64,000 bases of DNA from Suipraeoptans intestinalis (GTDB lineage Bacteria; Bacillota; Clostridia; Lachnospirales; Lachnospiraceae). This document shows positions 49,056 to 64,000 of this stretch, in pieces; the stretch's first letter is position 1, and each line of letters begins with the position of its first letter. Made by a program: the position numbers and the translations under genes. Under the pieces are notes generated by a model. That model did not search any database, was not told where the DNA came from, and was given only the letters and a program-made list of their open reading frames with translations. The stretch covers positions 2,157,906 through 2,221,905 of the forward strand of contig NZ_VULY01000018.1 in the NCBI RefSeq assembly GCF_009696485.1. Direction: 5' to 3'.

Positions 49056-49123
49056 CAGGAACCAATCGGTTGCAGAGCGTTTCGCTATGACAATACACAT
49101 TTCATATGAAGGAGGAATTTACA

Positions 49124-50404: not shown

Positions 50405-50417
50405 GGAGGACAGTACG

Positions 50418-51728
50418 ATGGCAAAATTAAGAGTGGTTCATTACATCAATCAGTTCTTTGCTCAGATTGGTGGAGAAGAAAAAGCGGATTATCCTGCAGA
50501 GATTCGTGTGGGAGAAGTAGTAGGACCGGGTGTGGCATTTGCGGCATCCTTTGGAGAAGAGGCAGAGATCGTTGCGACCATCATCTGTGGAGACTCTTAC
50601 TTCAATGAAAATCTGGAAAAAGCAAAGGCAGACATCCTGGCGATGGTAAAAGAGCAGGCTCCGGATGTATTTATCGCAGGACCGGCATTTAACGCAGGAC
50701 GTTACGGTGTTGCATGCGGAACTATCGCAGCGGCTGTTCAGGAAGAACTGGGTATCCCGTCCCTGACAGGTATGTATGTGGAAAATCCGGGTGCGGACAT
50801 GTTCAAGAACCAGGTATATATGGTTTCAACCAAGAACAATGCGGCAGGTATGAGAGACGCGGTGAAGAAGATGGCGCCGTTGGCTCTGAAGCTGGCGAAA
50901 AAAGAGCAGATCGGAGCTTCGGCAGAGGAAGGATACATGCCAAACGGCGTGCGTGTCAACTTCTTTGAGAAAGAAAGAGGATCTAAGAGAGCGGTAAAAA
51001 TGCTGCTGAACAAGCTGGCTGACAAACCGTTTGTAACAGAATTCCCCATGCCTGACTTTGACAGGGTAGAGCCCAATCCGGCCGTGAAGGATCTGGCACA
51101 CGCTAAGATCGCTATCGTGACTTCCGGAGGTATCGTTCCAAAAGGAAATCCGGATCACATTGAAAGCTCCAGTGCTTCCCGCTACGGCGAGTATGATATT
51201 ACCGGAGTAAATGATCTGACAGAGGAAACCTATGAGACGGCTCACGGCGGATATGATCCGATTTATGCAAATGAGGATTCAGACCGTGTTATCCCGGTGG
51301 ACGTGCTTCGAGATATGGAAAGAGAAGGCGTGATCGGAGAGCTGCATCACCTGTTCTATACCACGACAGGAAACGGAACGGCTGTTGCATCTTCCAAAGC
51401 GTTTGCAGCAGAATTTTCCCAGAAACTGAAAGCAGACGGAGTAGACGCTGTGATTCTCACTTCTACATGAGGAACCTGTACTCGTTGCGGTGCAACGATG
51501 GTGAAAGAAGTGGAGAGAGCAGGAATCCCGGTGGTACACATCTGTACCGTTACACCGATTTCCATGACAGTTGGAGCAAACAGGATCGTTCCGGCTATCG
51601 CGATTCCTCACCCGCTGGGAAATCCGGCACTGGATAAGGCGGAAGAAAAAGTGCTTCGTCGTCATATTGTAGAAAAAGCATTAGAGGCTTTGACGACAGA
51701 AGTAGACGGACAGACTATTTTTGATTAA
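50418..51728 (+). CDS. grdB: Glycine/sarcosine/betaine reductase selenoprotein B (GrdB family) with in-frame UGA (selenocysteine) at 51468-51470
   Basis: ORFs 50394..51470 and 51498..51728 are in the same frame, separated only by TGA; read-through gives ...DAVILTST-U-GTCTRCGATMVKEVERAG..., the GrdB UxxC active-site context; a stem-loop (TCGTTGC-GGT-GCAACGA, 51483-51499) lies about 12 nt downstream of the UGA as expected for a bacterial SECIS. Confidence 0.85.
51483..51499 (+). other. Candidate SECIS hairpin for grdB UGA decoding
   Basis: 7-bp perfect stem with GGU apical loop starting 12 nt 3' of the UGA. Confidence 0.4.
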
Positions 51729-51761
51729 TTCCAAGAGAGGAAAGAAGGAGGCAGAAAACAG

Positions 51762-52706
51762 ATGAGCAAAGTGTATGATGTGGTAATCCTGGGAGCAGGA
51801 CCTGCCGGTCTGGCAGCCGGACTGTATGCAGGCAGAAGCCGTTTGTCTACCCTCATCATTGAGAAGGGACAGGACGGCGGACAGATCGCCATCACGGACG
51901 AGATCGAAAATTATCCGGGGCAGATCGTGGAGGGAGAGTCAGGACCTTCCCTGATCGCAAGGATGACCAAGCAGGCAGAAAGATTTGGTGTGGAGAGAGT
52001 ATCTGATACCATCAAGGAAGTACAGCTGGAAGGAGACGTAAAAGTCCTGAAAAGCGAAAAAGGAGAGTATCAGGGAAAAAATGTGATCATCGCTACCGGA
52101 GCGTATGCACGCCCCATCGGATGCAAGGGAGAGGCTGATTTCATCGGAAAAGGCGTATCCTACTGTGCCACCTGTGACGCCAACTTCTTTGAAGATTTTG
52201 AAGTGTATGTGGTAGGCGGCGGAGATTCAGCCGTAGAAGAGGCGATGTATCTGTCCAAGTTTGCAAGGAAAGTGACCATTATCCACAGACGTGATGAACT
52301 TCGTGCGGCAAAATCCATCCAGGAAAAAGCATTTGCCAATCCAAAGATCGAATTCTTCTGGGATTCCGTAGTAGAGGAGATCTACGGCGAAGATATCCTG
52401 CAGGGAATGATCGTAAAAAATGTAAAGACCGGAGAAACCAGAAAGGTAGAAGCAGATCCGGAAGACGGAATGTTCGGCTTGTTTGGGTTCATCGGAACCA
52501 TCCCCAATTCCAAATTGTTTGAGGGGATCATCGATATGGATGAAAGAGGATACATCAAGGGAGATGAGGATATGCACACCAATGTTCCCGGTGTATATGT
52601 GGCAGGAGACGTTCGTATCAAGAGCCTTCGCCAGGTAGTAACGGCGGCGGCTGACGGAGCGATCGCAGCAACCCAGGTGGAAAGAAGCCTGTCCAACTAT
52701 TTCTAA
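51762..52706 (+). CDS. trxB: Thioredoxin-disulfide reductase
   Basis: FAD motif GAGPAGLAAGLYAGR, redox-active CATCD, NADPH GGGDSAVEEA. Confidence 0.95.
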   Translation: MSKVYDVVILGAGPAGLAAGLYAGRSRLSTLIIEKGQDGGQIAITDEIENYPGQIVEGESGPSLIARMTKQAERFGVERVSDTIKEVQLEGDVKVLKSEKGEYQGKNVIIATGAYARPIGCKGEADFIGKGVSYCATCDANFFEDFEVYVVGGGDSAVEEAMYLSKFARKVTIIHRRDELRAAKSIQEKAFANPKIEFFWDSVVEEIYGEDILQGMIVKNVKTGETRKVEADPEDGMFGLFGFIGTIPNSKLFEGIIDMDERGYIKGDEDMHTNVPGVYVAGDVRIKSLRQVVTAAADGAIAATQVERSLSNYF

Positions 52707-52823
52707 AAAATGAGGGGAGGCAGCCGAAGGAGGAGAGGATTCCTCCGGTTGCCTTCCGAAAGAAAGCAGACAGCCGAAGCTGTCAGAATCAATCAGAGAA
52801 CGATGAAAAATGGAGGTAGCAAG

Positions 52824-53141
52824 ATGTTAGATCTGGATAAGACAAATTTTGAAGAAGAAGTATTGAAGGCAGATGGATACGTATTTGTAGACTTTTACGG
52901 AGACGGATGTGTTCCCTGTCAGGCACTGATGCCGAAGGTGCATGAGTTTGCAGAAACTTATGGAGACAAGATGAAGTTTACGTCTTTGAACACTACAAAG
53001 GCACGCCGTCTTGCAATTTCCCAGAAGATCCTGGGACTTCCGGTTATGGCGATCTACAAAGGCGGAGAAAAGATCGATGAAGTCGTAAAGGACGACGCGA
53101 CACCGGAAAGCATTGAAGCAATGATTCAGAAATACATTTAA
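52824..53141 (+). CDS. trxA: Thioredoxin (Grd-associated, atypical GCVPC active site)
   Basis: Thioredoxin fold with [10 protein letters not shown] in place of the canonical WCGPC; start at MLDLDK (ATG 52824, RBS TGGAGGT). Confidence 0.85.
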
Positions 53142-53207
53142 TCGGGGGTATTTCTTGATCATAAAGCAACTTGAAGTAGGTATTTTCAGAAAGGAGAAAG
53201 CATAATT

Positions 53208-53681
53208 ATGGCTATTTTAGAAGGAAAAAAAGCAATAATTATCGGAGACCGTGACGGAATTCCGGGACCGGCGATCGCAGAATGTGTGCAGACGGCCGGA
53301 GCCGAGATTGTGTTTTCCTCAACGGAGTGCTTCGTTTGAACGAGCGCAGGTGCAATGGATTTAGAGAACCAGAAAAGGGTAAAAGAATTTGCTGACGAGT
53401 ATGGTGCAGAGAACTTGATCGTAGTTCTTGGTGCAGCAGAAGGTGAAGCAGCAGGACTTGCTGCTGAAACTGTAACAGCAGGTGACCCGACGTTCGCAGG
53501 TCCATTGACGGGAGTCCAGCTTGGACTTTTAGTATATCATGTATGTGAACCGGAGATGAAAGAAGAGTTTGATGAGGCTGTTTATGATGAACAGATCAGT
53601 ATGATGGAGATGGTACTTGACATTGATGACATTGTCAGCGAGATGACAGCCATCAGAGATGAATTCTGTAAGTTTTTATAA
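53208..53681 (+). CDS. grdA: Glycine reductase selenoprotein A (GrdA) with in-frame UGA (selenocysteine) at 53337-53339
   Basis: [58 protein letters not shown]...: the conserved GrdA N-terminus and CFVU motif; ATG 53208 (RBS AAAGGAGAAAG) and the listed ORF 53355.. are in the same frame. Confidence 0.85.
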
Positions 53682-53698
53682 AGTGAAAGGTTACACTT

Positions 53699-53727
53699 TC
53701 GGCGGAGGCAGGTCGGACCGCTCCGCC
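53699..53727 (+). other. Stem-loop between grdA and grdC (possible partial terminator / processing site)
   Basis: CGGCGGAG-12nt-CTCCGCC 8-bp stem 18 nt after the grdA stop, not followed by a U-tract. Confidence 0.3.
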
Positions 53728-53803
53728 GATATCATCATAAGGGTCTGACCGGCAGGCTCTTTCTTTTCTAATAAGAGAAAATAAGAAAGGTGGAAAACCA
53801 AGA

Positions 53804-55339
53804 ATGAATAGCGTAATTAAGGGAGCAAGTTATGTTTTAGTGCATACACCGGATATGGTGTTATATAATGGAACGACACAGACGACGGAAAAGATCGTAA
53901 ATCCGGAGTCCGACTATTTAAAAGAAGTACCCAACCATCTTCGTACCTACGAGGAGGCGCTTACTTACTGGCCGAATCAGACCTATATTGGGAACGCTCA
54001 TCCGGAAGAGCTTGCTGCGGTAGAGTTTCCGTGGTTTGACAAGAAAAAAGAAGATGCAAAACGCTATGGTAAATATGGAGAGATCATGCCACAAGAGGAA
54101 TTTTTACTGCTGGTGCAGGCTTGTGACATGTTTGAAGTCGTAAGACTGGATAAAGAATTTGTAGCAGAACACAAGGAGGCTTTTGCTGCCAATCCTGTGA
54201 TTTCCCAGGATATTGTGGAAAAGATCCACGAGGGCGCAGAGCTTTCTGAAATCGAAAAGTTTGTAACGGAAGAACATGCGGAAGGTCTGTACCATGACGG
54301 AAAGCTGGTAGGATGCGTAAAAAGAGCGCACGATATCGACGTAAACCTTTCCTCCCACGTTATGCACGAGAATCTGATGAGCAAGGCTTCCAGCGTACTG
54401 GCTCTGCTTCACGCAGTGAAAAATGCAGGGATCAGCAAAGAGGATGTAGACTACGTGGTGGACTGTGCAGAGGAAGCCTGCGGAGATATGAACCAGAGAG
54501 GCGGCGGCAACTTTGCAAAAGCGGCAGCCGAGATCGCAGGGCTGGTAAACGCTACCGGTTCCGATGCAAGAGGATTCTGTGCAGCGCCGACCCATGCGGT
54601 GATCGAAGCGGCGGCTTTGGTAAAATCCGGAGCATACAAGACGGTTGTAGTAACATCCGGAGGATGCACGGCGAAACTTGGCATGAATGGAAAAGATCAT
54701 CTGAAGAAGGGGCTTCCTATTCTGGAGGATTGTCTGGGAGGATTTGCCGTAGTCATTACAGAAAACGATGGAGTGAGCCCGGAGATCAATCTGAATATTC
54801 TGGGACGTCACTGCGTAGGAACAGGAAGCGCACCGCAGGCGGTAATCGGAAGTCTGGTTTCTGAGCCACTGGAGCGGGTAGGAATGAAGATCACGGACAT
54901 CGATAAATATTCGCCGGAGATGCAGAACCCGGATATCACAAAACCGGCAGGAGCAGGGGACGTTCCGATGGCAAATTACAAGATGATCGCAGCCCTGGCG
55001 GTAAAACGCGGCGACATCGACAGAAAAGAGCTGGCATCCTTTACGGAAAAGCATGGTCTGACCGGATGGGCGCCTACGCAGGGACATATTCCTTCCGGTG
55101 TGCCTTACATCGGGTTTGCATGTGATGATATTCTGGCAGATAAGATCAAAAACGCCATGATCATCGGAAAAGGAAGTCTGTTCCTGGGACGTATGACCAA
55201 CCTGTTTGACGGAGTATCCTTCGTGATCCAGAAAAATGAGGGAGCAACGGAAGAGACGGCAGGGGTTTCCGAAGAAGAGGTAAAAGGACTGATCGCAAAG
55301 GCAATGAAAGAGTTTGCTGCTACTCTTATGGCAGAGTAA
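53804..55339 (+). CDS. grdC: Glycine reductase complex protein C, beta subunit (GrdC)
   Basis: 511-aa ketoacyl-synthase-like protein with GrdC-type N-terminus (MNSVIKGASYVLVHTPD...) and conserved Cys region. Confidence 0.85.
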   Translation: MNSVIKGASYVLVHTPDMVLYNGTTQTTEKIVNPESDYLKEVPNHLRTYEEALTYWPNQTYIGNAHPEELAAVEFPWFDKKKEDAKRYGKYGEIMPQEEFLLLVQACDMFEVVRLDKEFVAEHKEAFAANPVISQDIVEKIHEGAELSEIEKFVTEEHAEGLYHDGKLVGCVKRAHDIDVNLSSHVMHENLMSKASSVLALLHAVKNAGISKEDVDYVVDCAEEACGDMNQRGGGNFAKAAAEIAGLVNATGSDARGFCAAPTHAVIEAAALVKSGAYKTVVVTSGGCTAKLGMNGKDHLKKGLPILEDCLGGFAVVITENDGVSPEINLNILGRHCVGTGSAPQAVIGSLVSEPLERVGMKITDIDKYSPEMQNPDITKPAGAGDVPMANYKMIAALAVKRGDIDRKELASFTEKHGLTGWAPTQGHIPSGVPYIGFACDDILADKIKNAMIIGKGSLFLGRMTNLFDGVSFVIQKNEGATEETAGVSEEEVKGLIAKAMKEFAATLMAE

Positions 55340-55351
55340 GGGGTGGTGACG

Positions 55352-56503
55352 ATGGCAAATAAGATAGAGCAGATGATCGCATCCACATTCATGGAGATGG
55401 CACAGGGACTGGAGACCGGAAGCTTTGGCAAAAAGCCCAGGATCGCCCTGACAGGGATGGGAAGCGAGCATGGAGAAGAAAACGCAATGGAAGCTGCCAT
55501 GATGGCAGCAAAAGAAGGGATCGAGGTTTATTACATCGGGACCCTGGAAGCGGAGGGTGTGATCACCGTAACCGTGAAGGATGAAGAAGAAGGCCACAAG
55601 AAAATGGAGGAGCTCCTGAAAAACAAAGAGGTGGATGGAGCCGTTACCATGCATTTCCCCTTCCCTATCGGGGTATCGACGGTAGGAAGAGCGATCACGC
55701 CTGCAAAGGGAAGAGAGATGTTTGTGGCGACCACTACCGGTACTTCCAGTGCAGATCGTATTGAAGGTATGATCAAAAATGCGATCTATGGAATCATTGC
55801 TGCAAAGGCCTGCGGCAAACAGGATCCGACGGTAGGGATCCTGAACGTGGATGGAGCAAGGCAGACCGAGATCGCATTGAAGCAGTTAAGAGACAACGGA
55901 TATGCTATCAGTTTTGCAGAGTCTGCAAGAAGTGACGGCGGCTGCGTCATGCGGGGAAATGATGTGCTTCAGGGATCGGCGGATGTAATGGTGTGCGATT
56001 CCCTGTCAGGAAATATCCTGATCAAGATGCTTTCTTCCTACACGACAGGGGGAAGCTACGAAGCTGCCGGATATGGATATGGCCCCGGTATCGGAGAAGG
56101 CTATGAGCAGCTGGTAATGATCATTTCCAGAGCATCCGGCGCGCCTCTGATCGCAGGAGCGATCCGCTATGCGGCAGAACTGGTCAGAGGAAAGGTGTTT
56201 GAGGTGGCAAAGAAAGAGTTTGCCGCAGCCAAGAAGGCCGGCCTGACAGAGATCCTTGCTGCAAGAAAAGGAGCAGAGAAGCCGGCTGCAGCAGAGGAAG
56301 TAGCGGCGCCGCCCAAAGAGGTGGTCACAGAACAGATCGCCGGTATTGAGATCATGGATCTGGAGGATGGCGTAAAGACGTTGTGGAAGCTGGGGATCTA
56401 TGCGGAAAGTGGAATGGGCTGTACCGGACCGATCATCCTGGTATCTGCACAGAACCTGGAAAAAGCAGCGGAAGAGCTGAAAAAAGCAGGGTATATTAAT
56501 TAA
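55352..56503 (+). CDS. grdD: Glycine reductase complex protein C, alpha subunit (GrdD)
   Basis: PlsX-like fold; start ATG 55352 (MANKIEQMIAS) after RBS GTAAGGGGTGGTG. Confidence 0.85.
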   Translation: MANKIEQMIASTFMEMAQGLETGSFGKKPRIALTGMGSEHGEENAMEAAMMAAKEGIEVYYIGTLEAEGVITVTVKDEEEGHKKMEELLKNKEVDGAVTMHFPFPIGVSTVGRAITPAKGREMFVATTTGTSSADRIEGMIKNAIYGIIAAKACGKQDPTVGILNVDGARQTEIALKQLRDNGYAISFAESARSDGGCVMRGNDVLQGSADVMVCDSLSGNILIKMLSSYTTGGSYEAAGYGYGPGIGEGYEQLVMIISRASGAPLIAGAIRYAAELVRGKVFEVAKKEFAAAKKAGLTEILAARKGAEKPAAAEEVAAPPKEVVTEQIAGIEIMDLEDGVKTLWKLGIYAESGMGCTGPIILVSAQNLEKAAEELKKAGYIN

Positions 56504-56537
56504 AACAAACGGCAGGATCTTGTCTGTCATAAAAAGG

Positions 56538-56589
56538 GTGTCCAAGCACTCTGAATGGAAGCATTCAGATGTTTGGGCATTCTTTTTTT
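56538..56589 (+). terminator. Intrinsic terminator of the grd operon
   Basis: Long hairpin GTGTCCAAGCACTCTGAATG...CATTCAGATGTTTGGGCAT followed by TCTTTTTTT. Confidence 0.8.
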
Positions 56590-56739
56590 GTGCCCCCTTT
56601 TGGAAATTTCGAAAGCCTAAAAAGCCTGGAGGGAGGAAAAATGACGGAAAGAAATATCACCAAGAGATGGCATTGTACACAAGAATAGAAGGGTGATTTT
56701 GTGCAAACAAACAAAAACGATAATAAACGATAATAAATA

Positions 56740-56772
56740 AACTAAAAATGTTGACTGAAAAGAATAAAAACG
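56740..56772 (+). promoter_or_regulatory. Promoter of the sugar ABC cassette (TTGACT-17-TAATAT) flanked by three copies of AACGATAAT
   Basis: TTGACT (56750) and TAATAT at canonical spacing; repeats at about 56716, 56727 and 56766. Confidence 0.5.
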
Positions 56773-56815
56773 ATAATATAACTTCATCAAAACTACCTAA
56801 GAGGAGGAAAAGTGA

Positions 56816-57769
56816 ATGAAAAAGAAAATCGTAGCAGGACTGTTGACGGCAGCCATGGTATGCGTGATGATCGCAGGCTGTGCAGGGCAGAAAGAGACAA
56901 AGAAGGAAGGAGAAAAGAAGGAGGAGGCGTTTAAGGCAGGGTTTGTGGTAGGTTCCTTTGAACATGTGTTTTATCAGCAGATCCGCGACGGGATTGAGGA
57001 GCAGGCAAAAGAACTGGGAATGGATGCAACCGTTACAGACGCAGAGCTGGATCCCAATATCGCATCCGACAGGATCCAGGATTTTGTAACGCAGGGCTGT
57101 GACGCAGTGGCTCTTTCCTGTAATGATGCGGCAGGGGTAAAACCGGCCATTGAGAATGCAGACAAAGAAGGCGTAAAGATGTTTACCTTTGATTGTACGA
57201 CGGATTCAGAAGCGATCCAGTGCTTTGTAGGAACAGACAATCTGGAAGGCGGAAGACTGGGCGGACAGGAACTGCTGAAATATTCCAAAGATGGAGATAC
57301 AGTAGGGATTATCTGTTATCCGACAGCTTCTTCCTGTCTGGATCGTCAAAACGGAGCATTGGAAGTGCTGGAAAAAGAGGACCGTAAAGTGGTTTATGAC
57401 AACAACTACGAAGGGGATGCCAACAAAGCGCAGGAGATCATGGAAAACATGCTGACGGCACATCCGGATATGGCGGCAGTGTTCTGTGTGGGAGATCCGG
57501 CTGCAACAGGAGCGCTTGCAGCGATCAAGGCGGCAGGATCCGACTGTAAGATCATCGGATTTGACGGAAATCCGGAAGCAAAAGAAGCGATTGCCGATAA
57601 AGAAGGAAACGGAAAATGGTGGGTGTCTGAAATCGCACAGAATCCGAAGGAAATCGGAAAACAGATCGTAGAACAGATGCATCAGTATCTGAGCACCGGA
57701 AAAGTGAAAGAAAAAACGATTTACATTGCTCCGTATGTCATTGATGCAAGTAATGTAAGCGAAAAATAG
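56816..57769 (+). CDS. Sugar ABC transporter substrate-binding lipoprotein (CUT2, ribose/galactose-binding-like)
   Basis: Lipoprotein signal (MIAGCAG); periplasmic-binding-protein type I fold motifs (FVVGSFEHVFYQQ, GIICYPTASSCLDR). Confidence 0.85.
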   Translation: MKKKIVAGLLTAAMVCVMIAGCAGQKETKKEGEKKEEAFKAGFVVGSFEHVFYQQIRDGIEEQAKELGMDATVTDAELDPNIASDRIQDFVTQGCDAVALSCNDAAGVKPAIENADKEGVKMFTFDCTTDSEAIQCFVGTDNLEGGRLGGQELLKYSKDGDTVGIICYPTASSCLDRQNGALEVLEKEDRKVVYDNNYEGDANKAQEIMENMLTAHPDMAAVFCVGDPAATGALAAIKAAGSDCKIIGFDGNPEAKEAIADKEGNGKWWVSEIAQNPKEIGKQIVEQMHQYLSTGKVKEKTIYIAPYVIDASNVSEK

Positions 57770-57859
57770 GAGACATCTACAGCAGGCAAAAGCCAGATAA
57801 GGACAAAAAGGAGCAGGCGGGCAGTTTGTGTCCGCCTGAACTTGTGAAGGGATAGGGAT

Positions 57860-59359
57860 ATGAAGCCGATTTTTCAAGTAAAGCAAATCAGTAAAAGCTT
57901 CCCGGGAGTAAAAGCGTTGACAGAGGTCAGTATTGATTTTTATCCGGGAGAGGTTCATGCATTGGTTGGAGAAAATGGTGCGGGAAAATCTACATTGATC
58001 AAGATCATGTCGGGAGTGTACACCCCAACGGACGGAGAATTGATCTATCAGGGAGAAAAACTGTCGTTCAAGGCGCCAAAGGAAGCCATTGATCTGGGAA
58101 TTCTGGTGATCCACCAGGAGCTGAGCGTAGCAAATCATCTGACTGTGGCGGAAAATATCTATCTGGGCTGCGAGCCCAGAAGGAAGAACGGAATGCTGGA
58201 CAGGAAGAAAATGAACCGGGATGCACAGGCAATTCTGGACGAGATGAATGTAGATATACAGGCGGATATGCTGGCAGGACATTTAAACGCCGCCCAGCAG
58301 CAAATGATCGAAATTGCAAAAGTAATTTCCAAGCAGGCCAAGATCGTGATCATGGACGAGCCTACCTCGTCACTTTCAGAGCATGAGATACAGTCTTTGT
58401 TTATCCAGATCAAAAAACTGATCGAGAAAAATGTATCTGTTGTATATATCACACACAGGATGAAAGAGATCACAGAGATCGGACACCGTGTTACCGTCCT
58501 GAGAGACGGCTGCAAGGTAGACACCATGCAGGTGAAGGAAGTAACCGAAAAAGAGATCGTTTCACGGATGGTAGGAAGGGAAATAGGCGATTACTACCAC
58601 AAAAAAGAGCATAAGAGAGGAAAAGAAATGCTCCGTGTGGAAAACCTGTCTAAACAGGGAGTGTTCTCAGAGATTTCCTTCTGTGCGTATGCAGGAGAAA
58701 TCGTAGGATTTTCAGGACTGGTAGGAGCCGGAAGAACGGAAGTGATGGAAGCGATCTTCGGAGCCACCGGATATGAGGAAGGAAAGGTCTATCTGGAGGG
58801 GAAAGAGGTGCTGTTTCGGACGCCGAAGGAGGCCATCCGAAGTAAGATCGGACTGGTGACGGAAGACAGAAGACGGACGGGACTTCTCCTCAAGAAAAAG
58901 ATCCGGGAGAATATCGTTCTGCCCAGCCTGACAAGGCACCGAAAAAAGCTGGGATTTCTGAACAAGGCATGGGAGGTCACATCCAGCAGGCAATATATGG
59001 AAAAATTAAAGATCAAAGCGCCGGGCATCGATACGGTGGTAGGAACCTTGTCGGGAGGGAATCAACAGAAGGTCATACTGGCAAAATGGCTGGTTGCGGA
59101 TTCCAAGATTCTGATACTGGATGAACCTACAAGAGGGATCGATGTCAATGCAAGGTCGGAATTCTATACGCTGATGAATGACTTTGTGGAACAAGGCGGG
59201 GCGATCATCATGATTTCTTCCGAAATGCCGGAAATCCTGGGAGTATCTGACAGGATTATCGTGATGCGGGAAGGAAGGATCAGCGGAGAACTGTCCAGAG
59301 AGGAAGCGACAGAACAAAGAGTGATTCATATGGCAAGTATCACCAGTGAGAAGGAGTAA
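57860..59359 (+). CDS. Sugar ABC transporter ATP-binding protein (duplicated ABC domains, RbsA/MglA type)
   Basis: Two ABC domains (Walker A GENGAGKST; LSGGNQQK), 499 aa. Confidence 0.9.
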   Translation: MKPIFQVKQISKSFPGVKALTEVSIDFYPGEVHALVGENGAGKSTLIKIMSGVYTPTDGELIYQGEKLSFKAPKEAIDLGILVIHQELSVANHLTVAENIYLGCEPRRKNGMLDRKKMNRDAQAILDEMNVDIQADMLAGHLNAAQQQMIEIAKVISKQAKIVIMDEPTSSLSEHEIQSLFIQIKKLIEKNVSVVYITHRMKEITEIGHRVTVLRDGCKVDTMQVKEVTEKEIVSRMVGREIGDYYHKKEHKRGKEMLRVENLSKQGVFSEISFCAYAGEIVGFSGLVGAGRTEVMEAIFGATGYEEGKVYLEGKEVLFRTPKEAIRSKIGLVTEDRRRTGLLLKKKIRENIVLPSLTRHRKKLGFLNKAWEVTSSRQYMEKLKIKAPGIDTVVGTLSGGNQQKVILAKWLVADSKILILDEPTRGIDVNARSEFYTLMNDFVEQGGAIIMISSEMPEILGVSDRIIVMREGRISGELSREEATEQRVIHMASITSEKE

Positions 59360-59379
59360 GGAAGAGAGGACGAAAGACT

Positions 59380-60366
59380 ATGAGTGTTAAAAAATGGCTG
59401 AACCAGAATATTGTAATCGTCGTGTTGGTTTTGCTTTGTATTGGATTTGGACTGGCATCACCGGTGTTTTTTACAGTGAAAAACATTACGAACATTTTAT
59501 CGCAAATGTGTATCAATGCGCTTCTGGCGTCCGGACTGGTGTATGTCATCATCCTGGGCGGGATTGATATTTCGGTAGGAAGTGTGGTCGGACTTTCCGG
59601 AGTCCTTTCTGCGTGGATCGGACTGCATTTTTTCCCAAACATGAATGTGGTGGAAGGCGTTCTTCTTTTACTGGTATCAGGATTGGCGGTGGGAACGGTT
59701 ATTGGAGCGATCAACGGGATCATGATCGCAAAATTTAAAGTGGTTCCCATGATCGCAACGCTCGCCATGCTCTCCATTGCAAGAGGAGCGGCTTATATTG
59801 TGTCAGACGGACAGCCTGTTTACGGACTTCCCAACAGTTTTGCGTTTCTGGGAGCCGGACGCATCATAAAAACAGAAAATTCCCCCAATGGGATCATTCC
59901 GGTTATCGTAATCTTCACAGCAGTGATCGTGGTGATCATGCATATACTGTTGTCGAAAACAGTGTTTGGACGTCATGTTTATGCGTGCGGGAGTAACGCA
60001 AATGTTGCGCACTTAAGTGGAATCAGCGTACCTAAGATTACATTTATCTGCCATGTTCTATGTGGAATAACGGCAGCGCTTGGCGGAATCGCCATGGCGT
60101 CCAAGCTTCAAAACGGGCAACCGGCAGGAGGAGAAGCTTATGAAATGTATGCAATCGCATCGACCGTGCTGGGAGGAACCTCATTGGCCGGAGGAAGCGG
60201 ATCTGTGGGAAGAGCCATGTTTGGAGCGGCGGTGATCGCAGTGATCAATAACGGAATGAATCTGATGCAGATCAATTCCTATTGGCAGAAGGTGGTGATC
60301 GGAGCGATCATCCTGATGGCGGTAGTTCTGGATATGGCACAGCAGGGAAAGACGAACAAACACTAG
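59380..60366 (+). CDS. Sugar ABC transporter permease (RbsC/BPD type 2)
   Basis: 328-aa about 10-TM permease with typical CUT2 branched-chain-like permease profile. Confidence 0.85.
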   Translation: MSVKKWLNQNIVIVVLVLLCIGFGLASPVFFTVKNITNILSQMCINALLASGLVYVIILGGIDISVGSVVGLSGVLSAWIGLHFFPNMNVVEGVLLLLVSGLAVGTVIGAINGIMIAKFKVVPMIATLAMLSIARGAAYIVSDGQPVYGLPNSFAFLGAGRIIKTENSPNGIIPVIVIFTAVIVVIMHILLSKTVFGRHVYACGSNANVAHLSGISVPKITFICHVLCGITAALGGIAMASKLQNGQPAGGEAYEMYAIASTVLGGTSLAGGSGSVGRAMFGAAVIAVINNGMNLMQINSYWQKVVIGAIILMAVVLDMAQQGKTNKH

Positions 60367-60405
60367 GAAGCAGACAAGGCAGGGAAGCGGGGTGAGGCTG
60401 GAATC

Positions 60406-61374
60406 ATGAAAAAGTATTATATTGCGTTGGATATAGGAGGAACAAAGACGTCGGGAGCCGTTTTTTTACAGGGTGGAACGATCGCAGAGGATTATGTGTA
60501 CGTCACCCCCTCGAAAACTTTTGACGGAGAAGAGGCCGTGTACCAAAACACAAAAGGAGTGGTGGATCATCTGCTCCGTCGTTTTCAGATAGAAATCTCA
60601 GATGTTCTGGGAATCGGAGTGGGATGTCCGGGGCCGCTGGATCGAAAGACAGGAGTGATCCTGCACGCCCCTATGATGCGATGGAGAAATTTTCCGCTGA
60701 TAAAGAGGCTTCAGGAAGATTTTCCGGTACCGATCTGTCTGGACAATGACGGAAATTTGGGAGCTCTGGCTGAACAAAGATGCGGAGAGGCCAAAGGAGA
60801 GGAAGCGGTTTTCTATATGACTGTCAGTACAGGCTGCGGCGGCGGATTGGTAGTAGATGGAACGATCTATCATGGGGCAAAAGACGGAGCGATGGAAATC
60901 GGACATATGTGTGTGGAAACAGAAGGAAGGCAGTGCCCCTGCGGAGCAAAAGGATGCTTTGAATTATATGCATCAGGGACGGCTCTGAACAGGCGGGCGA
61001 ACAGTCAGATCCGGCAGCACGAAGACAGCATCCTGTACAGGCTGGCAATGGAAGAAGAGCGGGAAATTACAGGAAAAGATATTTTGGAAGCGGCAGAGAA
61101 AGGGGACTTTTTTGCCCTGGAGCTTTACCGAAAGGAAGGAGAATATCTGGGGATCGGAATCGGAAACATTCTGCGGCTGTTTGATCCTTCGGCCGTCGTG
61201 CTGGGAGGAGGCGTGACAAAAGCAAAGGCATTTTTTCACGATGCGATGGTCCGCACGCTGAAAAGCCGGGGATTTGTAAATATGAAAGAAGATATGATCC
61301 GTTATTCTCGCATGAATGACAGGGTAGTACTTTATGGAGCTTATTATCTGATAAAAGAAGAAACACTTTCATAA
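60406..61374 (+). CDS. ROK family sugar kinase
   Basis: N-terminal ALDIGGTKTSGAVF ATP motif; ROK zinc motif GHMCVETEGRQCPCGAKGCFELYASG. Confidence 0.85.
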   Translation: MKKYYIALDIGGTKTSGAVFLQGGTIAEDYVYVTPSKTFDGEEAVYQNTKGVVDHLLRRFQIEISDVLGIGVGCPGPLDRKTGVILHAPMMRWRNFPLIKRLQEDFPVPICLDNDGNLGALAEQRCGEAKGEEAVFYMTVSTGCGGGLVVDGTIYHGAKDGAMEIGHMCVETEGRQCPCGAKGCFELYASGTALNRRANSQIRQHEDSILYRLAMEEEREITGKDILEAAEKGDFFALELYRKEGEYLGIGIGNILRLFDPSAVVLGGGVTKAKAFFHDAMVRTLKSRGFVNMKEDMIRYSRMNDRVVLYGAYYLIKEETLS

Positions 61375-61390
61375 GTGGGAAGGAGATTAT

Positions 61391-62260
61391 ATGTTAGTGA
61401 CTTTGAAGGAAATCTTATCGAAAACAAGGACAGAAGGATACGGAGTAGGCGCTTTTAACTATAACGACTATGAGGATGCAAAGGGAATCGTGGAAGCCGC
61501 GGTGGAAGAGGATGCACCGGTTATTCTGATGGCTTCTATGGGCGCGGTAAAATACATGGGATTAAAGCATGCGGCAGAGATGGTGAAGGAACTGGCAGAA
61601 AAGGCTCCTGTTCCGGTGTGCCTGCATCTGGATCATGCGACGGATGTGGATTTGATCAAGGATGCGGTACGTGCCGGATTTACCTCTGTTATGATAGATG
61701 CGTCGAAACTGGATTACGAGGATAATATCCGGGTGACAAAAGAGGTGGTGGAATTTGCAAGACCCTATGGATGCTCTGTGGAATCCGAGCTGGGAACAGT
61801 GGGGGGAAAAGAAGAACAGATCGAAGCGGAAGACGATGTATCCGGATATACCAGACCGGAAGACGTTCCGGATTTTGTGGGACGTACAGGGATCGACGCA
61901 CTTGCGGTTGCCATTGGGACCTGTCATGGATTTTATAAAAAAGAGCCCAAAATAGATTTTGACAGACTGGGAAAGATCGTAGAACTGACAGACTGTCCGC
62001 TGGTACTTCATGGCGGCTCCGGCGTTCCGGAAGAGGACTTTAAAACCTGTGTGAAAATGGGAATGAGTAAGATCAACGTCGGGACGGAATTAAAGGCGGG
62101 CTTTTCCCGGGCTCTCCGTGAAGCAGTGGAAAAAGAACCGAAGGAAGAATTTGACCCGAGAAATTATATGAAGTATGTGATCCGCACCTGTAAGGCGATC
62201 GCAAAGGAAAAGATGCAGATTTTTGGAAGTACGGGCAAAGCATGGAAGGAGCAGGCATGA
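61391..62260 (+). CDS. Class II ketose-bisphosphate aldolase (tagatose/fructose-1,6-bisphosphate aldolase family)
   Basis: Class II aldolase motifs LHLDHATD, GVPEEDF..., metal ligand His pattern; 289 aa like GatY/KbaY. Confidence 0.8.
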   Translation: MLVTLKEILSKTRTEGYGVGAFNYNDYEDAKGIVEAAVEEDAPVILMASMGAVKYMGLKHAAEMVKELAEKAPVPVCLHLDHATDVDLIKDAVRAGFTSVMIDASKLDYEDNIRVTKEVVEFARPYGCSVESELGTVGGKEEQIEAEDDVSGYTRPEDVPDFVGRTGIDALAVAIGTCHGFYKKEPKIDFDRLGKIVELTDCPLVLHGGSGVPEEDFKTCVKMGMSKINVGTELKAGFSRALREAVEKEPKEEFDPRNYMKYVIRTCKAIAKEKMQIFGSTGKAWKEQA

Positions 62261-63204
62261 AGCTTGGAGTCATTACCAGCGGAGGAGATGCCCCGGGCAT
62301 GAACCCCTGTTTGGCACAGATCATTCGGGAAGGACAAAAACGCGGGCATGAGATCATAGGGTTTGAAGGAGGATTTCGCGGGATCGCAGAAAACAGATGC
62401 CGAAAACTTTCGCCGGAGGAAGTGACTTTGTGGTACCAAAGAGGAGGCACCTGCATCAAAACAGGGAGGTTTCCGGAGCTGGAAAAGGAGTCGGCACAGA
62501 AAAAGGTTGCAGAGCAGCTAAGAGCGCACCGGATAGAAGGTCTGATGGTTTTGGGAGGAGACGGCTCCTTTAAGGGAGCGCTGGCGGTTCACCGCATGTT
62601 CCCGGAACTCAATATCATCGGGATTCCCTGTACCATAGACAACAATGTGTACGGAAGTGACTACACACTGGGATTTGACACGGCTTTGAATACACAGACA
62701 ACCTACCTGGACGGACTGATGGATACGGGAGAATCTCTGGACGGAAGGGTGTTTTTCATTGAAACCCTGGGAGCCTATGACGGATATCTGGCACAGAGCA
62801 CCTACCTGATGGGCATGGCGGAATTTGCGGTTCTGGATGAAATGCCAATGGAAGAGGAAGAGATCATTCGGAAGGTGCTGCAGGCAAGAGAAGAAAAAAG
62901 ATCAGGAAGTATTTATGTGATGTTTTCCGAAAGCGACGGGAAGCATAGATGTTTAAGGATTGCAGATGTGATTCGGGATAGATATAATATAAATATCAAG
63001 TGTAGTATATTAGGATTCAGTCAGAGAGGAAATGCGCCAACAGCCAGGGACAGATTGATGGCATCCGGATTTGCGGACAGAGCGATCCGGGCGATGGAAA
63101 CGGGAGTGAAGAACCAGTATATTGTATATCGCAAAGGTGAGTTTCAGTACATGGATATTTCAAATGCATCAAAGAAGAAAGTATTTGACTGGCACCACAT
63201 ATAA
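62257..63204 (+). CDS. PfkA-family (ATP-dependent 6-phosphofructokinase-like) kinase with non-canonical sugar-phosphate site
   Basis: GGDAPGMN, GGDGS and TIDNNV (catalytic Asp) retained. At the positions of the F6P-binding MGR and GHxQRGG motifs it has LGA (ETLGAYDGY) and LGFSQRGN. Start overlaps the aldolase stop (ATGA) with RBS GGAAGGAG. Confidence 0.75.
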   Translation: MKLGVITSGGDAPGMNPCLAQIIREGQKRGHEIIGFEGGFRGIAENRCRKLSPEEVTLWYQRGGTCIKTGRFPELEKESAQKKVAEQLRAHRIEGLMVLGGDGSFKGALAVHRMFPELNIIGIPCTIDNNVYGSDYTLGFDTALNTQTTYLDGLMDTGESLDGRVFFIETLGAYDGYLAQSTYLMGMAEFAVLDEMPMEEEEIIRKVLQAREEKRSGSIYVMFSESDGKHRCLRIADVIRDRYNINIKCSILGFSQRGNAPTARDRLMASGFADRAIRAMETGVKNQYIVYRKGEFQYMDISNASKKKVFDWHHI

Positions 63205-63240
63205 TCTACTTCACGATAAATAAAGGCGGTGGAGACGAGT

Positions 63241-64000
63241 ATGTTACCTGAGGAAAGAAAAAATTATATCTATAACATCATCAACGAACGAAAAGTGGTC
63301 AAGGTTTCAGAACTGAGCAAAGAACTGGAACTGACAGAGGCAACCATCCGGAGAGACCTGGAAGAACTGCAAAATGAGAAAAAGCTCCGGCGCACCCATG
63401 GCGGGGCAGTAGCGCTGCAGCCGGAAGAAACCTTTTATGTGATTCGGCAGCTGGCGACCATCCATGTGCAGGAAAAGCGGGCGATCGCCAAAAAGGCGTA
63501 TGAATTTATTGAGGACGGAGACACCCTGATTCTGGATGCGTCCAGCACGACGCAGGAGCTTTGTAAGCTGATCGCAGAAGGCAATAAAAAAGAGCTGACG
63601 GTTATTACAAACGCATTCAGCGTGGTGAATATTCTGCGGGTAAAGCACGATATGATCATTATCCACACAGGGGGAGTGGTGGAGCCAAAAACAGAGTCCA
63701 GTATAGGAGATTTTGCCGTTCGCCAGCTGTCTAAGCTAAAGGCAGACAAGGTGTTTATGGGTGTCAACGGGATCGATCCGGAATTTGGTTATTCCATCAC
63801 AAACCTAAATGAAGGAAATGTAAAAAGGGCCATGATCAATTGCGCGGCAGAGGTCTTTGTGATCGCAGATCACAGCAAATTTTCTTCAACGTTTTTATCT
63901 CAGGTGGCAGAGCCGGAAGGAGAGGTGGACTACCTGATCACCGACCGGAAACATCCCAAGATAGATTACAGTGTGTATGAAAAAAAAGTACATTTGATTT
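63241..64000 (+). CDS. DeoR family transcriptional regulator (3' end outside window)
   Basis: N-terminal HTH (ERKNYIYNIINERKVVKVSELSKELELTEATIRRDL) and DeoR C-terminal sugar-phosphate sensor region; frame open to the window end, so absent from the ORF list. Confidence 0.8.
   Translation, partial: MLPEERKNYIYNIINERKVVKVSELSKELELTEATIRRDLEELQNEKKLRRTHGGAVALQPEETFYVIRQLATIHVQEKRAIAKKAYEFIEDGDTLILDASSTTQELCKLIAEGNKKELTVITNAFSVVNILRVKHDMIIIHTGGVVEPKTESSIGDFAVRQLSKLKADKVFMGVNGIDPEFGYSITNLNEGNVKRAMINCAAEVFVIADHSKFSSTFLSQVAEPEGEVDYLITDRKHPKIDYSVYEKKVHLI

What the first reader, a model, noticed from the sequence alone, without database searches (positions are those of the whole stretch)
56716..64000. 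Sugar catabolic cassette with a PfkA-family kinase lacking canonical fructose-6-phosphate contacts
The cassette comprises a CUT2 ABC transporter, a ROK kinase, a class II ketose-bisphosphate aldolase (GatY/KbaY-like), a PfkA-fold kinase and a DeoR regulator, and it may continue past the window. The PfkA homologue keeps the ATP and catalytic motifs (GGDGS, TIDNN) but has LGA in place of MGR and F in place of the F6P-binding His in the GHIQRGG motif. That predicts a different ketose-phosphate substrate, for example tagatose-6-P, psicose-6-P or sorbose-type sugars. This would be analogous to a Gat/Aga-type pathway, but with a dedicated PfkA paralog rather than a PfkB/LacC kinase.

Three AACGATAAT repeats bracket the promoter (56716-56775) and are candidate operator sites for the DeoR regulator.
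Basis: partly seen in the sequence, partly recalled or inferred. Interest (0 to 1): 0.6.

Follow-up and report, generated by a model that had tools for sequence, protein, structure and literature searches.

The report
Rare-sugar operon with divergent phosphofructokinase paralog
This is the front part of a repressor-controlled operon that imports a free sugar (probably tagatose or a similar rare ketohexose), phosphorylates it twice and splits it. Its second kinase belongs to a previously undescribed but widespread gut-bacterial branch of the phosphofructokinase family.

Summary
Window 56.7-64.0 kb carries, on the + strand, a CUT2 ABC importer (3 genes), a ROK kinase, a class II ketose-bisphosphate aldolase, a PfkA-fold kinase and a truncated DeoR gene. 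They sit behind a strong terminator and a sigma-70-like promoter flanked by three exact AACGATAAT copies.

The PfkA homologue has N129, L169, A171, K243 and F249 where E. coli PfkA has D, M, R, R and H. These changes are not private to this protein. They define a monophyletic subfamily (95 of the 120 best homologues; 50/50 bootstraps) that also has a degenerate allosteric site.

In every related locus with enough sequence, the ROK-aldolase-PfkA-like triad is intact. Accessory genes are tagatose-kinase-like PfkB, GatZ, and DhaK/DhaL plus a FruK-like PfkB. An 83%-identical relative shows that the operon continues past the window with DhaK, DhaL and that PfkB. The aldolases keep the terminal-phosphate ligands, which points to a bisphosphate substrate.

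Best reading: free ketohexose to 6-phosphate to 1,6-bisphosphate to trioses, with tagatose the leading candidate. Substrate identity is inferred, not shown. H249Y alone does not exclude fructose-6-phosphate. This is a new variant of a known kind of pathway.

The parts
56537..56589 (+). Intrinsic terminator closing the upstream glycine-reductase (grdC/grdD) unit. It makes the cassette a separate transcription unit.
   Evidence: Hairpin of -34.9 kcal/mol, z = -9.65 against shuffles, followed by a T-run. The upstream genes are Gly_reductase, GRDB and FA_synthesis-type GrdD.
56715..56734 (+). Two tandem copies of AAACGATAAT spaced 10 bp apart, just upstream of the -35. Candidate DeoR operator.
   Evidence: Equivalent 10-bp-spaced AAACGAWA pairs occur in the DeoR-type loci L005 and L106, and none in the RpiR-type loci L003 and L110.
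56751..56779 (+). Sigma-70-like promoter, TTGACT-17 nt-TAATAT.
   Evidence: 9 of 12 matches. It is the only such site upstream of the first gene.
56768..56777 (+). Third AAACGATAAT copy, overlapping the -10 hexamer. Candidate operator that would block RNA polymerase.
   Evidence: The same copy is kept in the 83%-identical relative L114.
56816..57769 (+). Lipoprotein-type sugar-binding protein of a CUT2 ABC importer.
   Evidence: PF13407, 179 bits. Below every NCBIfam equivalog cutoff; RbsB is best at 126 against a cutoff of 337. 32% identical to the E. coli Nissle tagatose SBP.
57860..59359 (+). Fused two-domain ABC ATPase (CUT2 type).
   Evidence: Two ABC_tran domains. Resembles AraG, RbsA and XylG but is below their cutoffs.
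59380..60366 (+). CUT2 permease.
   Evidence: PF02653. 39% identical to the Nissle tagatose permease.
60406..61374 (+). ROK-family sugar kinase with no DNA-binding domain. Proposed ketohexose 6-kinase.
   Evidence: PF00480, 224 bits. Scores 207.9 against the glucokinase subfamily cutoff of 260. Closest solved structures are glucokinases. Always adjacent to the aldolase and the PFK-like gene in relatives.
61391..62260 (+). Class II (IIB, FbaA/GatY-type) ketose-bisphosphate aldolase.
   Evidence: PF01116, 347 bits. Passes TIGR00167 'ketose-bisphosphate aldolase' (305.6 > 215.6) and is below the FBA and TBP equivalog cutoffs. Keeps S49, K235 (TELK) and R257 (DPR), the terminal-phosphate ligands.
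62257..63204 (+). PfkA-fold kinase of a distinct subfamily (N129, L169, A171, K243, F249; degenerate effector site). Proposed ATP-dependent ketohexose-6-phosphate 1-kinase.
   Evidence: The start at 62257 overlaps the aldolase stop (ATGA), read directly from the sequence.
63243..64000 (+). DeoR-family regulator, truncated by the window end. Proposed repressor of the operon.
   Evidence: (HTH_DeoR+DeoRC in L001).

Best explanation
The region is the first seven genes of a roughly ten-gene, DeoR-repressed operon for PTS-independent catabolism of a free ketohexose other than fructose. D-tagatose is the leading candidate.

Proposed steps:
1. The CUT2 ABC system imports the sugar.
2. The ROK kinase makes the 6-phosphate.
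3. The PfkA-fold paralog makes the 1,6-bisphosphate using ATP. It belongs to a monophyletic subfamily that has lost D129, M169/R171, H249 and the allosteric-site arginines, but keeps the catalytic base D127, the Mg/ATP motifs and three of the four 6-phosphate ligands.
4. The adjacent class II aldolase cleaves the bisphosphate to DHAP and glyceraldehyde-3-phosphate.
5. DeoR binds AAACGATAAT direct repeats that flank the -35 and overlap the -10. It is presumably released by a sugar-phosphate intermediate.

Downstream DhaK-DhaL-FruK-like PfkB, seen in near-identical contigs, form an accessory module whose role is unresolved.

Shown: gene content and order, family membership, the residue signature and its clade-wide conservation, the invariant ROK-aldolase-PFK synteny, the retained phosphate ligands in the aldolase, and the repeat/promoter geometry.

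Inferred: the sugar, the order of the two phosphorylations, ATP as donor, and repression by DeoR.
For: Signature and clade:
- L169, A/G171, Y/F249, non-R154 and M/I/L185 occur in all of P0001-P0095, and N129 in 92 of those 95. None of P0096-P0120 carries the full set; all 25 keep M169, R154 and G185.
- The clade is monophyletic in 50/50 NJ bootstraps. Mean identity is 59% within the clade and 36% to other PFKs.
- Positions 104 (G) and 124 (G/C/S/A) are of the ATP type.

Synteny:
- ROK-aldolase-PFK-like are adjacent in every locus with enough sequence. These come from Lachnospiraceae-type, Anaerotignum, Spirochaetaceae, Oscillospiraceae and termite/human/mouse gut contigs.
- The triad is kept even where the transporter is a different CUT2 or a CUT1 system.

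Tagatose link:
- GatZ sits in the operon in Anaerotignum (L003) and next to it in L005 (521 and 503 bits to agaZ_gatZ).
- PfkB neighbours in five lineages hit the NCBIfam 'tagatose kinase' model best (267-330 bits). One is 43% identical to the experimentally validated Nissle tagatose kinase.
- These loci share orthologous SBP (53-55%), ROK (59-60%), aldolase (60-65%) and PFK-like (51-53%) with the window.

Bisphosphate substrate:
- All associated aldolases keep S/T49, K235 and R257 (K in one locus). These match the 6-phosphate ligands described for class II FBP aldolases. Sulfofructose-phosphate aldolases have Ala at the Arg position (PMC10665668).

Precedent:
- The E. coli Nissle pathway uses ABC import, then Tag-6-P, then Tag-1,6-BP, then trioses, with PfkA as the essential 1-kinase (PMC9720028).

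Regulation.
Against: - No biochemical data exist for any member of the subfamily, as far as the searchable literature shows.
- Canonical PfkA already accepts tagatose-6-P (PMC9720028, PMC10339645), so the substitutions are not explained by that substrate.
- H249Y occurs in PPi-PFKs that use F6P (PMC10339645).
- The window SBP is no closer to the Nissle tagatose SBP (32%) than to ribose-binding proteins.
- The aldolase scores marginally higher on FBA models than on TBP models.
- The window lineage itself has neither GatZ nor a TagK-like gene.
- Nearly all loci carry more kinases than a two-step route needs, namely PfkB and often DhaKL. The pathway as drawn is therefore incomplete.
Confidence: 0.5

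Rival explanations
1. Ordinary fructose (or mannose/glucose-derived F6P) catabolism. The ROK protein is a fructo/mannokinase. The PFK-like and aldolase genes are sugar-induced, non-allosteric isoenzymes of PFK and FBA. The substitutions remove cooperativity and allosteric control rather than change sugar specificity.
For: - The protein passes the NCBIfam subfamily model 'ATP-dependent 6-phosphofructokinase' (260.5 > 253).
- The aldolase is just under the FBA equivalog cutoff (337.9 against 343) and scores above the TBP models.
- The ROK protein is closest to glucokinases.
- Y249 is compatible with F6P use in PPi-PFKs (PMC10339645).
- Effector-site residues R25, R54 and R154 are lost.
- From memory: R171 mutants of E. 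coli PfkA mainly alter cooperativity (Berger and Evans 1990).
Against: - Clade-wide loss of R171 and D129 is not seen in the canonical ATP- or PPi-PFKs sampled.
- GatZ and tagatose-kinase-like genes recur in orthologous loci.
- The equivalog PFK model is missed by a wide margin (261 against 371).
- Duplicating glycolytic steps in a transporter operon is unusual.
Confidence: 0.2
2. Fructolysis-like route. The PfkA-like enzyme phosphorylates C1 of an unphosphorylated (or otherwise 6-modified) ketose. The aldolase releases DHAP plus free glyceraldehyde, and DhaK/DhaL acts as the triokinase.
For: - DhaK/DhaL are co-operonic in the window lineage and in at least four other lineages.
- One 6-phosphate ligand is lost (H249F, and R243K).
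- SqiK shows that PfkA-family enzymes can take a non-phosphorylated 6-substituent (PMC9594981).
Against: - R162, K243 and R252 are retained, so the pocket is still strongly cationic.
- The aldolase keeps all the terminal-phosphate ligands.
- Dak is absent from about half the lineages, while ROK is invariant.
- DhaL is fused or adjacent to a FruK-like 1-phosphoketose kinase, which points to a bisphosphate product rather than triose salvage.
Confidence: 0.1
3. Heptulose route: sedoheptulose (or another ketoheptose) to S7P (ROK), to sedoheptulose-1,7-bisphosphate (PFK-like), to DHAP plus erythrose-4-phosphate.
For: H249Y/L substitutions occur in PPi-PFKs that phosphorylate S7P (PMC10339645). Class IIB aldolases can cleave SBP (same paper).
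Against: - R162, which is replaced in those PPi-PFKs, is kept here.
- No transketolase or transaldolase genes appear in any of the contexts.
- The GatZ and TagK links point to hexoses.
Confidence: 0.07
4. Sulfoglycolysis (sulfo-EMP2). The PFK-like protein is a SqiK-type sulfofructose kinase and the aldolase is a SqiA-type SFP aldolase.
For: It has the same two Pfam families as SqiK and SqiA (PF00365, PF01116; PMC9594981). The 6-position pocket is altered.
Against: - No sulfoquinovosidase, SqvD/SqvB isomerase, sulfolactaldehyde reductase/dehydrogenase or sulfonate exporter appears in any locus.
- The aldolase keeps the Arg that SqiA replaces by Ala (PMC10665668).
- A ROK hexose 6-kinase has no role on a 6-sulfo sugar.
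Confidence: 0.02

Closest known systems
ABC-mediated D-tagatose cluster of E. coli Nissle 1917 / B2 phylogroup (PMC9720028)
   Same: CUT2 ABC importer, cytosolic kinase to the 6-phosphate, PfkA-fold enzyme for the 1-phosphorylation, class II GatY-type aldolase, and a DeoR-family regulator. The permease is 39% and the aldolase 42% identical.
   Different: In Nissle the 6-kinase is a PfkB-family protein and the 1-kinase is the housekeeping, canonical PfkA encoded elsewhere. Here the 6-kinase is proposed to be ROK and the 1-kinase is a dedicated, divergent PfkA paralog inside the operon. The SBP is only 32% identical. There is no aldose 1-epimerase. A DhaK/DhaL/PfkB module is added.
Galactitol / N-acetylgalactosamine pathways of enterobacteria (GatYZ, KbaYZ plus PfkA)
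   Same: Tagatose-6-P goes to tagatose-1,6-BP by a PfkA-fold kinase and is then cleaved by a class II aldolase. GatZ homologues accompany the aldolase in two related loci.
   Different: Those pathways start from PTS uptake, whereas this one starts from ABC uptake of a free sugar. The aldolase here is below the GatY and KbaY model cutoffs. The window lineage has no GatZ.
Canonical bacterial ATP-PFK (PfkA, EC 2.7.1.11; 1PFK, 4PFK)
   Same: Same fold and length. G11-D12, R72, D103-G-S, T125, D127, R162, E222 and R252 are kept. About 35-40% identity.
   Different: D129N, M169L, R171A, R243K, H249F and G185M. Effector-site residues R25, R54 and R154 are lost. Scores 261 bits against the 371-bit cutoff of the equivalog model.
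SqiK/SqiA of the sulfo-EMP2 pathway (PMC9594981, PMC10665668)
   Same: Precedent for a PfkA-family kinase plus class II aldolase pair recruited to a non-F6P ketose.
   Different: No sulfoquinovose genes are present. The aldolase keeps the phosphate-binding Arg.
Gram-positive tagatose-6-phosphate pathway (LacABCD)
   Same: Tagatose-6-P goes to the bisphosphate and then to trioses.
   Different: LacC is PfkB-family and LacD is a class I aldolase. Entry is via galactose-6-P from PTS lactose or galactose.

Membership tests
PfkA family (Pfam PF00365) | Full-length match to the PFK domain above the gathering score | tested here: met
   259.7 bits against a cutoff of 30.9, covering residues 7-284.
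Canonical ATP-dependent 6-phosphofructokinase (EC 2.7.1.11) | Score above the NCBIfam equivalog TIGR02482 cutoff | tested here: not met
   261 bits against a cutoff of 371.35. Only the broad subfamily model NF002872 is passed (260.5 against 253).
Canonical ATP-dependent 6-phosphofructokinase (EC 2.7.1.11) | Complete F6P/catalytic residue set of E. coli PfkA (T125, D127, D129, R162, M169-G170-R171, E222, R243, H249, R252) | tested here: not met
   D129N, M169L, R171A, R243K and H249F. The rest are kept.
Canonical ATP-dependent 6-phosphofructokinase (EC 2.7.1.11) | Allosteric ADP/PEP effector site (R21/R25, R54, R154, E187, K213) | tested here: not met
   Residue 154 is M in the window protein (S/T/M across the clade), residue 54 is P, and residue 213 is S in the window protein.
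Canonical ATP-dependent 6-phosphofructokinase (EC 2.7.1.11) | Phosphorylates fructose-6-phosphate efficiently | not testable with these tools
   Needs an enzyme assay.
ATP- rather than PPi-dependent PfkA-family enzyme | G at position 104 (GGDG) and no Lys at position 124 | tested here: met
   G104 is invariant. Position 124 is C in the window protein and G/C/S/A in the clade.
Tagatose-bisphosphate aldolase GatY/KbaY | Score above the TBP-aldolase equivalog/subfamily cutoffs | tested here: not met
   TIGR01858 298 against 443.6; NF009374 317 against 383; NF006626 320 against 384.
Class II ketose-bisphosphate aldolase (TIGR00167 / PF01116) | Family score, the HLDH metal/catalytic motif, and the terminal-phosphate ligands | tested here: met
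   305.6 against 215.6. D81-H82, S49, K235 and R257 are conserved in the window protein and across the associated aldolases.
ROK sugar kinase | ROK domain, no N-terminal HTH, catalytic Asp, ExGH motif and Zn-binding Cys motif | tested here: met
   PF00480, 224.5 bits. LDNDGN, EIGH and CPCGAKGC are read in the translation. Specificity is untested; the protein is below the glucokinase subfamily cutoff.
CUT2 (TC 3.A.1.2) monosaccharide ABC importer | Peripla_BP_4 SBP, one polypeptide with two ABC domains, and a BPD_transp_2 permease | tested here: met
E. coli Nissle-type ABC tagatose pathway | Orthologous tagatose-binding SBP and PfkB tagatose kinase | tested here: not met
   The SBP is 32% identical, no better than to RbsB-type proteins. 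There is no TagK-like gene in the window or in L114. TagK-like genes are present in five related lineages.
E. coli Nissle-type ABC tagatose pathway | Growth on, or induction by, D-tagatose | not testable with these tools
   Needs culture or expression data.
Sulfo-EMP2 (SqiK/SqiA) | Co-location with sulfoquinovosidase, SqvD and SLA reductase; Ala at the partner-subunit Arg of the aldolase | tested here: not met
   None of these genes appears in any locus. The Arg is retained.
DeoR-family repressor with direct-repeat operators | HTH_DeoR plus DeoRC domains; repeated operator half-sites at the regulated promoter | tested here: met
   Domains. Repeats at the promoter, conserved in DeoR-type but not RpiR-type orthologous loci. 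Binding itself is untested.

The most novel reading that the evidence does not exclude
The PfkA-like clade is a new enzyme activity: an ATP-dependent, non-allosteric ketohexose-6-phosphate 1-kinase that discriminates against fructose-6-phosphate. The co-operonic DhaK/DhaL plus FruK-like PfkB (fused in some genomes) forms a second, PTS-independent entry in which a Dak-family enzyme phosphorylates C1 of a ketohexose and the PfkB enzyme then phosphorylates C6. Two kinase pairs would then converge on one bisphosphate aldolase. This would give gut Firmicutes a dual-entry route for rare ketohexoses such as tagatose, sorbose or psicose.
Probability: 0.2. Interest if true: 0.7.

Novelty: new variant of a known kind. 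Interest (0 to 1): 0.5.

Why it matters
D-tagatose and related rare ketohexoses are used as low-calorie sweeteners and are fermented mainly by gut microbes. The only PTS-independent bisphosphate route described so far is the E. coli B2 cluster, which borrows the housekeeping PfkA (PMC9720028).

The operon here is common in human, mouse and termite gut contigs. Some member proteins were seen on about 90 contigs. It would be the corresponding route in Lachnospiraceae, Anaerotignum, spirochaetes and relatives.

It also defines a cleanly separable PfkA subfamily that current annotation pipelines call '6-phosphofructokinase'. That label inflates the apparent glycolytic capacity in genome-scale models.

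The subfamily is a natural experiment on which PfkA active-site residues set sugar specificity and which set allostery.

Tried and rejected
1. A genome-contig scan with the subfamily alignment was wasted. A hand-made DNA pattern for TIDNN[IV][YF]GSDYT on metagenome contigs recovered 20 loci instead.

2. Substrate assignment through the SBP was inconclusive. The SBP is 32% identical to the Nissle tagatose SBP, and its best solved homologues are ribose- and allose-binding proteins at similar scores.

3. Aldolase assignment through NCBIfam and PDB was inconclusive between FBA and TBP aldolase.

4. The SqiK/sulfoglycolysis idea was rejected on context and on the aldolase Arg.

5. A second TIDNN-bearing PFK-like clade (L096, L098) was tested as a possible SqiK. 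Its neighbours are a PRD/EIIA regulator and unrelated ABC exporters, so it is not sulfoglycolytic.

6. Literature searches for a characterised member of this subfamily, for an MGR-motif reference and for Dak-FruK fusions found nothing.

7. The first NJ/bootstrap script timed out and was rerun with numpy distances.

8. No structure prediction was run, because the tools return no coordinates for inspecting the pocket.

Full report
**What is there**

The + strand from 56.8 kb to the window end holds seven tightly packed genes.
- 56816-57769: a Peripla_BP_4 sugar-binding lipoprotein.
- 57860-59359: an ABC ATPase with two fused ABC domains.
- 59380-60366: a BPD_transp_2 permease. Together these three have the CUT2 architecture.
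- 60406-61374: a ROK protein with no DNA-binding domain and with the catalytic and zinc motifs of ROK kinases.
- 61391-62260: a class II aldolase.
- a PFK-domain protein.
- from 63243: a DeoR-family gene that runs off the window.

The PFK-like ORF opens at 62242. Homologues begin at the methionine encoded at 62257, whose ATG overlaps the aldolase stop as ATGA. I therefore take 62257 as the start, which also implies translational coupling.

Upstream lies a glycine/sarcosine/betaine reductase cluster. It ends in a very stable terminator hairpin (-34.9 kcal/mol, z = -9.65). The cassette is therefore its own transcription unit.

The only sigma-70-like site in front of it is TTGACT-17-TAATAT at 56751-56779.

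**The observation about the kinase is correct, with one correction**

I aligned the protein with E. coli PfkA, using literature numbering (sequence index minus one).
- Kept: G11-D12, R72, D103-G104-S105, T125, the catalytic base D127, R162, E222 and R252.
- Changed: N for D129, L-G-A for M169-G170-R171, K for R243 and F for H249.

The canonical motif is TIDND, so D129N is part of the deviation. According to PMC10339645, D129 is the residue that contacts Mg2+/NH4+.

The same paper lists R162 and H249 among the ligands of the 6-phosphate of F6P. The substitutions therefore do fall in the active site.

Positions 104 (G) and 124 (C) are of the ATP-dependent, not the PPi-dependent, type.

**The substitutions define a subfamily**

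Among the 120 best homologues in the 5.8-billion-protein collection, the first 95 are 40-92% identical to the query (most about 310-320 aa).
- All 95 carry L169, A or G at 171, Y or F at 249, a non-arginine at effector-site position 154, and M/I/L at 185.
- 92 of the 95 carry N129.
- From hit 96 onward the pattern switches to the canonical M-G-R, H249, R154 and G185.
- A neighbour-joining analysis recovers the group as monophyletic in 50 of 50 bootstraps. Mean identity is 59% inside the group and 36% to the other PFKs.
- NCBIfam places the protein 110 bits below the 6-phosphofructokinase equivalog cutoff. It only just passes a broad subfamily model.
- Named members are annotated simply as '6-phosphofructokinase'. 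They come from Lachnospiraceae, Anaerotignum, Oscillospiraceae, Spirochaetaceae/Treponema and Fretibacterium.

**Genomic context**

Contigs carrying the identical or related proteins gave about fifteen distinct lineages.
- Wherever enough sequence is present, the order ROK, class II aldolase, PFK-like is invariant.
- The transporter varies. Most loci carry the same CUT2 orthologues as the window (SBP 50-82% identical). Two carry distant CUT2 systems (L007, L088). One carries a CUT1 system with a LacI regulator (L089).
- Regulators are DeoR, RpiR or LacI.
- Accessory genes recur:
  - a PfkB kinase whose best NCBIfam hit is 'tagatose kinase' (267-330 bits, below the 420 cutoff), found in five lineages. 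The Anaerotignum copy is 43% identical to the experimentally validated tagatose kinase of E. coli Nissle;
  - GatZ/KbaZ homologues (503-521 bits), in the operon in Anaerotignum and beside it in one Lachnospiraceae-type lineage;
  - DhaK plus DhaL plus a FruK-type 'hexose kinase' PfkB in five or six lineages. DhaL and the PfkB kinase are fused into one protein in some of them.

For the window's own lineage, the near-identical contig L001 shows DeoR-DhaK-DhaL after the PFK-like gene. The 83%-identical relative L114 shows the full ten-gene operon ending in the FruK-type PfkB. The window itself contains no GatZ or TagK-like gene.

**The aldolase**

It scores between the FBA and tagatose-bisphosphate aldolase models and passes only the generic 'ketose-bisphosphate aldolase' model. 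Solved homologues do not discriminate between the two.

The structural study of class II sulfofructose-phosphate aldolases (PMC10665668) names the 6-phosphate ligands of class II FBP aldolases: Ser49 and Arg259 in the protomer, and Arg280 from the partner subunit. It notes that SqiA has Ala at the last position.

In the window enzyme and all 19 associated aldolases, the equivalents are S or T at 49, K at 235 (the TELK motif shared with AgaY and the Nissle enzyme) and the Arg of the DPR motif at 257. One locus has K at 257. The mapping of R280 onto the DPR arginine is by position in Thermus and H. pylori-length enzymes and is an inference.

A terminal phosphate is therefore expected on the substrate. 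That fits two sequential phosphorylations before cleavage.

**Most likely mechanism**

A free ketohexose is imported by the ABC system and phosphorylated at C6 by the ROK kinase. It is then phosphorylated at C1 by the PfkA-like enzyme and cleaved to DHAP and glyceraldehyde-3-phosphate.

This is the logic of the ABC-mediated tagatose pathway shown genetically in E. coli Nissle. There, a PfkB tagatose kinase and a GatY-like aldolase are encoded in the cluster, and deleting the housekeeping pfkA abolishes growth on tagatose (PMC9720028).

Here the 1-kinase is a dedicated paralog inside the operon, and the 6-kinase is proposed to be ROK.

Tagatose is the leading candidate because GatZ and TagK-like genes accompany orthologous copies of the same SBP, ROK, aldolase and PFK genes.

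I put about 0.75 on 'ketose-6-P to bisphosphate to trioses', about 0.6 on a preferred substrate other than F6P, and about 0.4 on tagatose specifically.

**Why caution is needed**

- Canonical PfkA enzymes already use tagatose-6-P (PMC9720028; M. tuberculosis PfkA in PMC10339645), so the substitutions are not required for that substrate.
- Y249 is found in PPi-PFKs that phosphorylate F6P and also sedoheptulose-7-P (PMC10339645).
- The loss of R171 and of the effector-site arginines could instead reflect loss of cooperativity and allostery in an inducible isoenzyme. From memory, R171 mutants of E. coli PfkA chiefly change cooperativity. I could not find an open-access source for this.
- The SBP gives no substrate signal.
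- Almost every locus has at least three kinases, one more than the drawn pathway needs. The recurrent DhaK-DhaL-FruK-type module, with a DhaL-PfkB fusion, suggests a second route (C1 first, then C6), a second sugar, or triose salvage. This is unresolved (notebook).

**Rivals**

- A plain fructose isoenzyme module: 0.2.
- A fructolysis-like route with Dak as triokinase: 0.1. The retained cationic 6-phosphate pocket and the aldolase phosphate ligands argue against it.
- A heptulose route via S7P: 0.07.
- Sulfoglycolysis, SqiK/SqiA-like: 0.02. None of the sulfoquinovose genes is present in any locus, and the aldolase keeps the Arg that SqiA lacks.

**Regulation**

Exact AACGATAAT occurs only at 56716, 56726 and 56769 in the 64-kb window.
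- The first two copies are 10 bp apart and lie just upstream of the -35.
- The third copy overlaps the -10 and is retained in the 83%-identical relative.
- The core AAACGAWA occurs three times in the 250 bp upstream of the SBP gene, against 0.08 expected (0 of 2000 shuffles).
- 10-bp-spaced pairs of the same core occur at the orthologous promoters of the DeoR-type loci L005 and L106. Degenerate AAA[CT]GA[AT]A runs occur in L090, L103, L107 and L115. The RpiR-type loci L003 and L110 have none.

Because the motif is AT-rich and short, the cross-species evidence is moderate rather than strong. Binding is untested.

**Novelty and verdict**

I found no paper describing this PfkA subfamily or the ROK-aldolase-PFK triad.

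The pathway type is known (Nissle tag cluster; Gat/Aga pathways). So is the idea that PfkA-family enzymes can be recruited to non-F6P ketoses (SqiK).

I therefore rate it a new variant of a known kind. It is a well-supported, testable hypothesis about a mis-annotated enzyme subfamily that is common in gut Firmicutes and spirochaetes.

Interest is 0.5.

Noticed in passing
L005 12340-14964; L090 9776-12390; L104 3212-5343; L114 7360-10130; L103 3-2312; L001 9511-11225 (downstream of window end): DhaK plus DhaL plus a FruK-type 'hexose kinase' PfkB recur next to the triad. In three lineages DhaL and the PfkB kinase are fused into one ~530-aa protein, and no DhaM is visible. This is a possible PTS-independent Dak-family ketose 1-kinase coupled to a 6-kinase, or a triose-salvage module.
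   Followed up: partly
L096 3521-4510; L098 1155-2144: A second, unrelated non-canonical PfkA-like clade, about 30% identical to the query. It has GGEGS (D103E), TIDNN, F-G-G for MGR, S for E222 and Y249. It is encoded directly after a ~700-aa PRD/EIIA-containing PTS regulator (HTH-Mga-PRD-EIIA2). Function unknown; not sulfoglycolytic by context.
   Followed up: partly
window 49106-56503: A glycine/sarcosine/betaine reductase cluster lies immediately upstream. It contains Gly_reductase component B, GRDB selenoprotein B (the ORF at 50394-51470 probably ends at an in-frame UGA selenocysteine codon), a thioredoxin-reductase-like gene, and GrdC/GrdD-like genes. It indicates a Stickland-type amino-acid fermenter.
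   Followed up: partly
window 56537-56589: A very stable intrinsic terminator (-34.9 kcal/mol, z -9.65) that the simple consensus terminator scan did not list.
   Followed up: yes
L088 359-4917: In one lineage the triad sits behind two SDRs, a xylose-isomerase-like TIM-barrel protein (possible ketose 3-epimerase), a ROK-type regulator and a D-lyxose/mannose isomerase. This suggests polyols or aldoses such as talose or mannose are funnelled into the same kinase-kinase-aldolase core.
   Followed up: no
L005 10955-11338; L090 8318-8701; L104; L112: A small VOC/glyoxalase-fold protein is conserved between the PFK-like gene and the TagK-like kinase in one Lachnospiraceae-type lineage. It has no assigned role in any known tagatose route.
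   Followed up: no
window 62242-63204 vs PDB 4xyj: D129N and R171A/G are also found in the non-catalytic C-terminal (fructose-2,6-bisphosphate-binding) half of animal PFK (TVSNN, MGG). The query aligns with that half as a single full-length stretch (108 bits), whereas its match to the catalytic N-half is split into two stretches (46 + 65 bits). Unlike the animal C-half, D127 is retained here.
   Followed up: no
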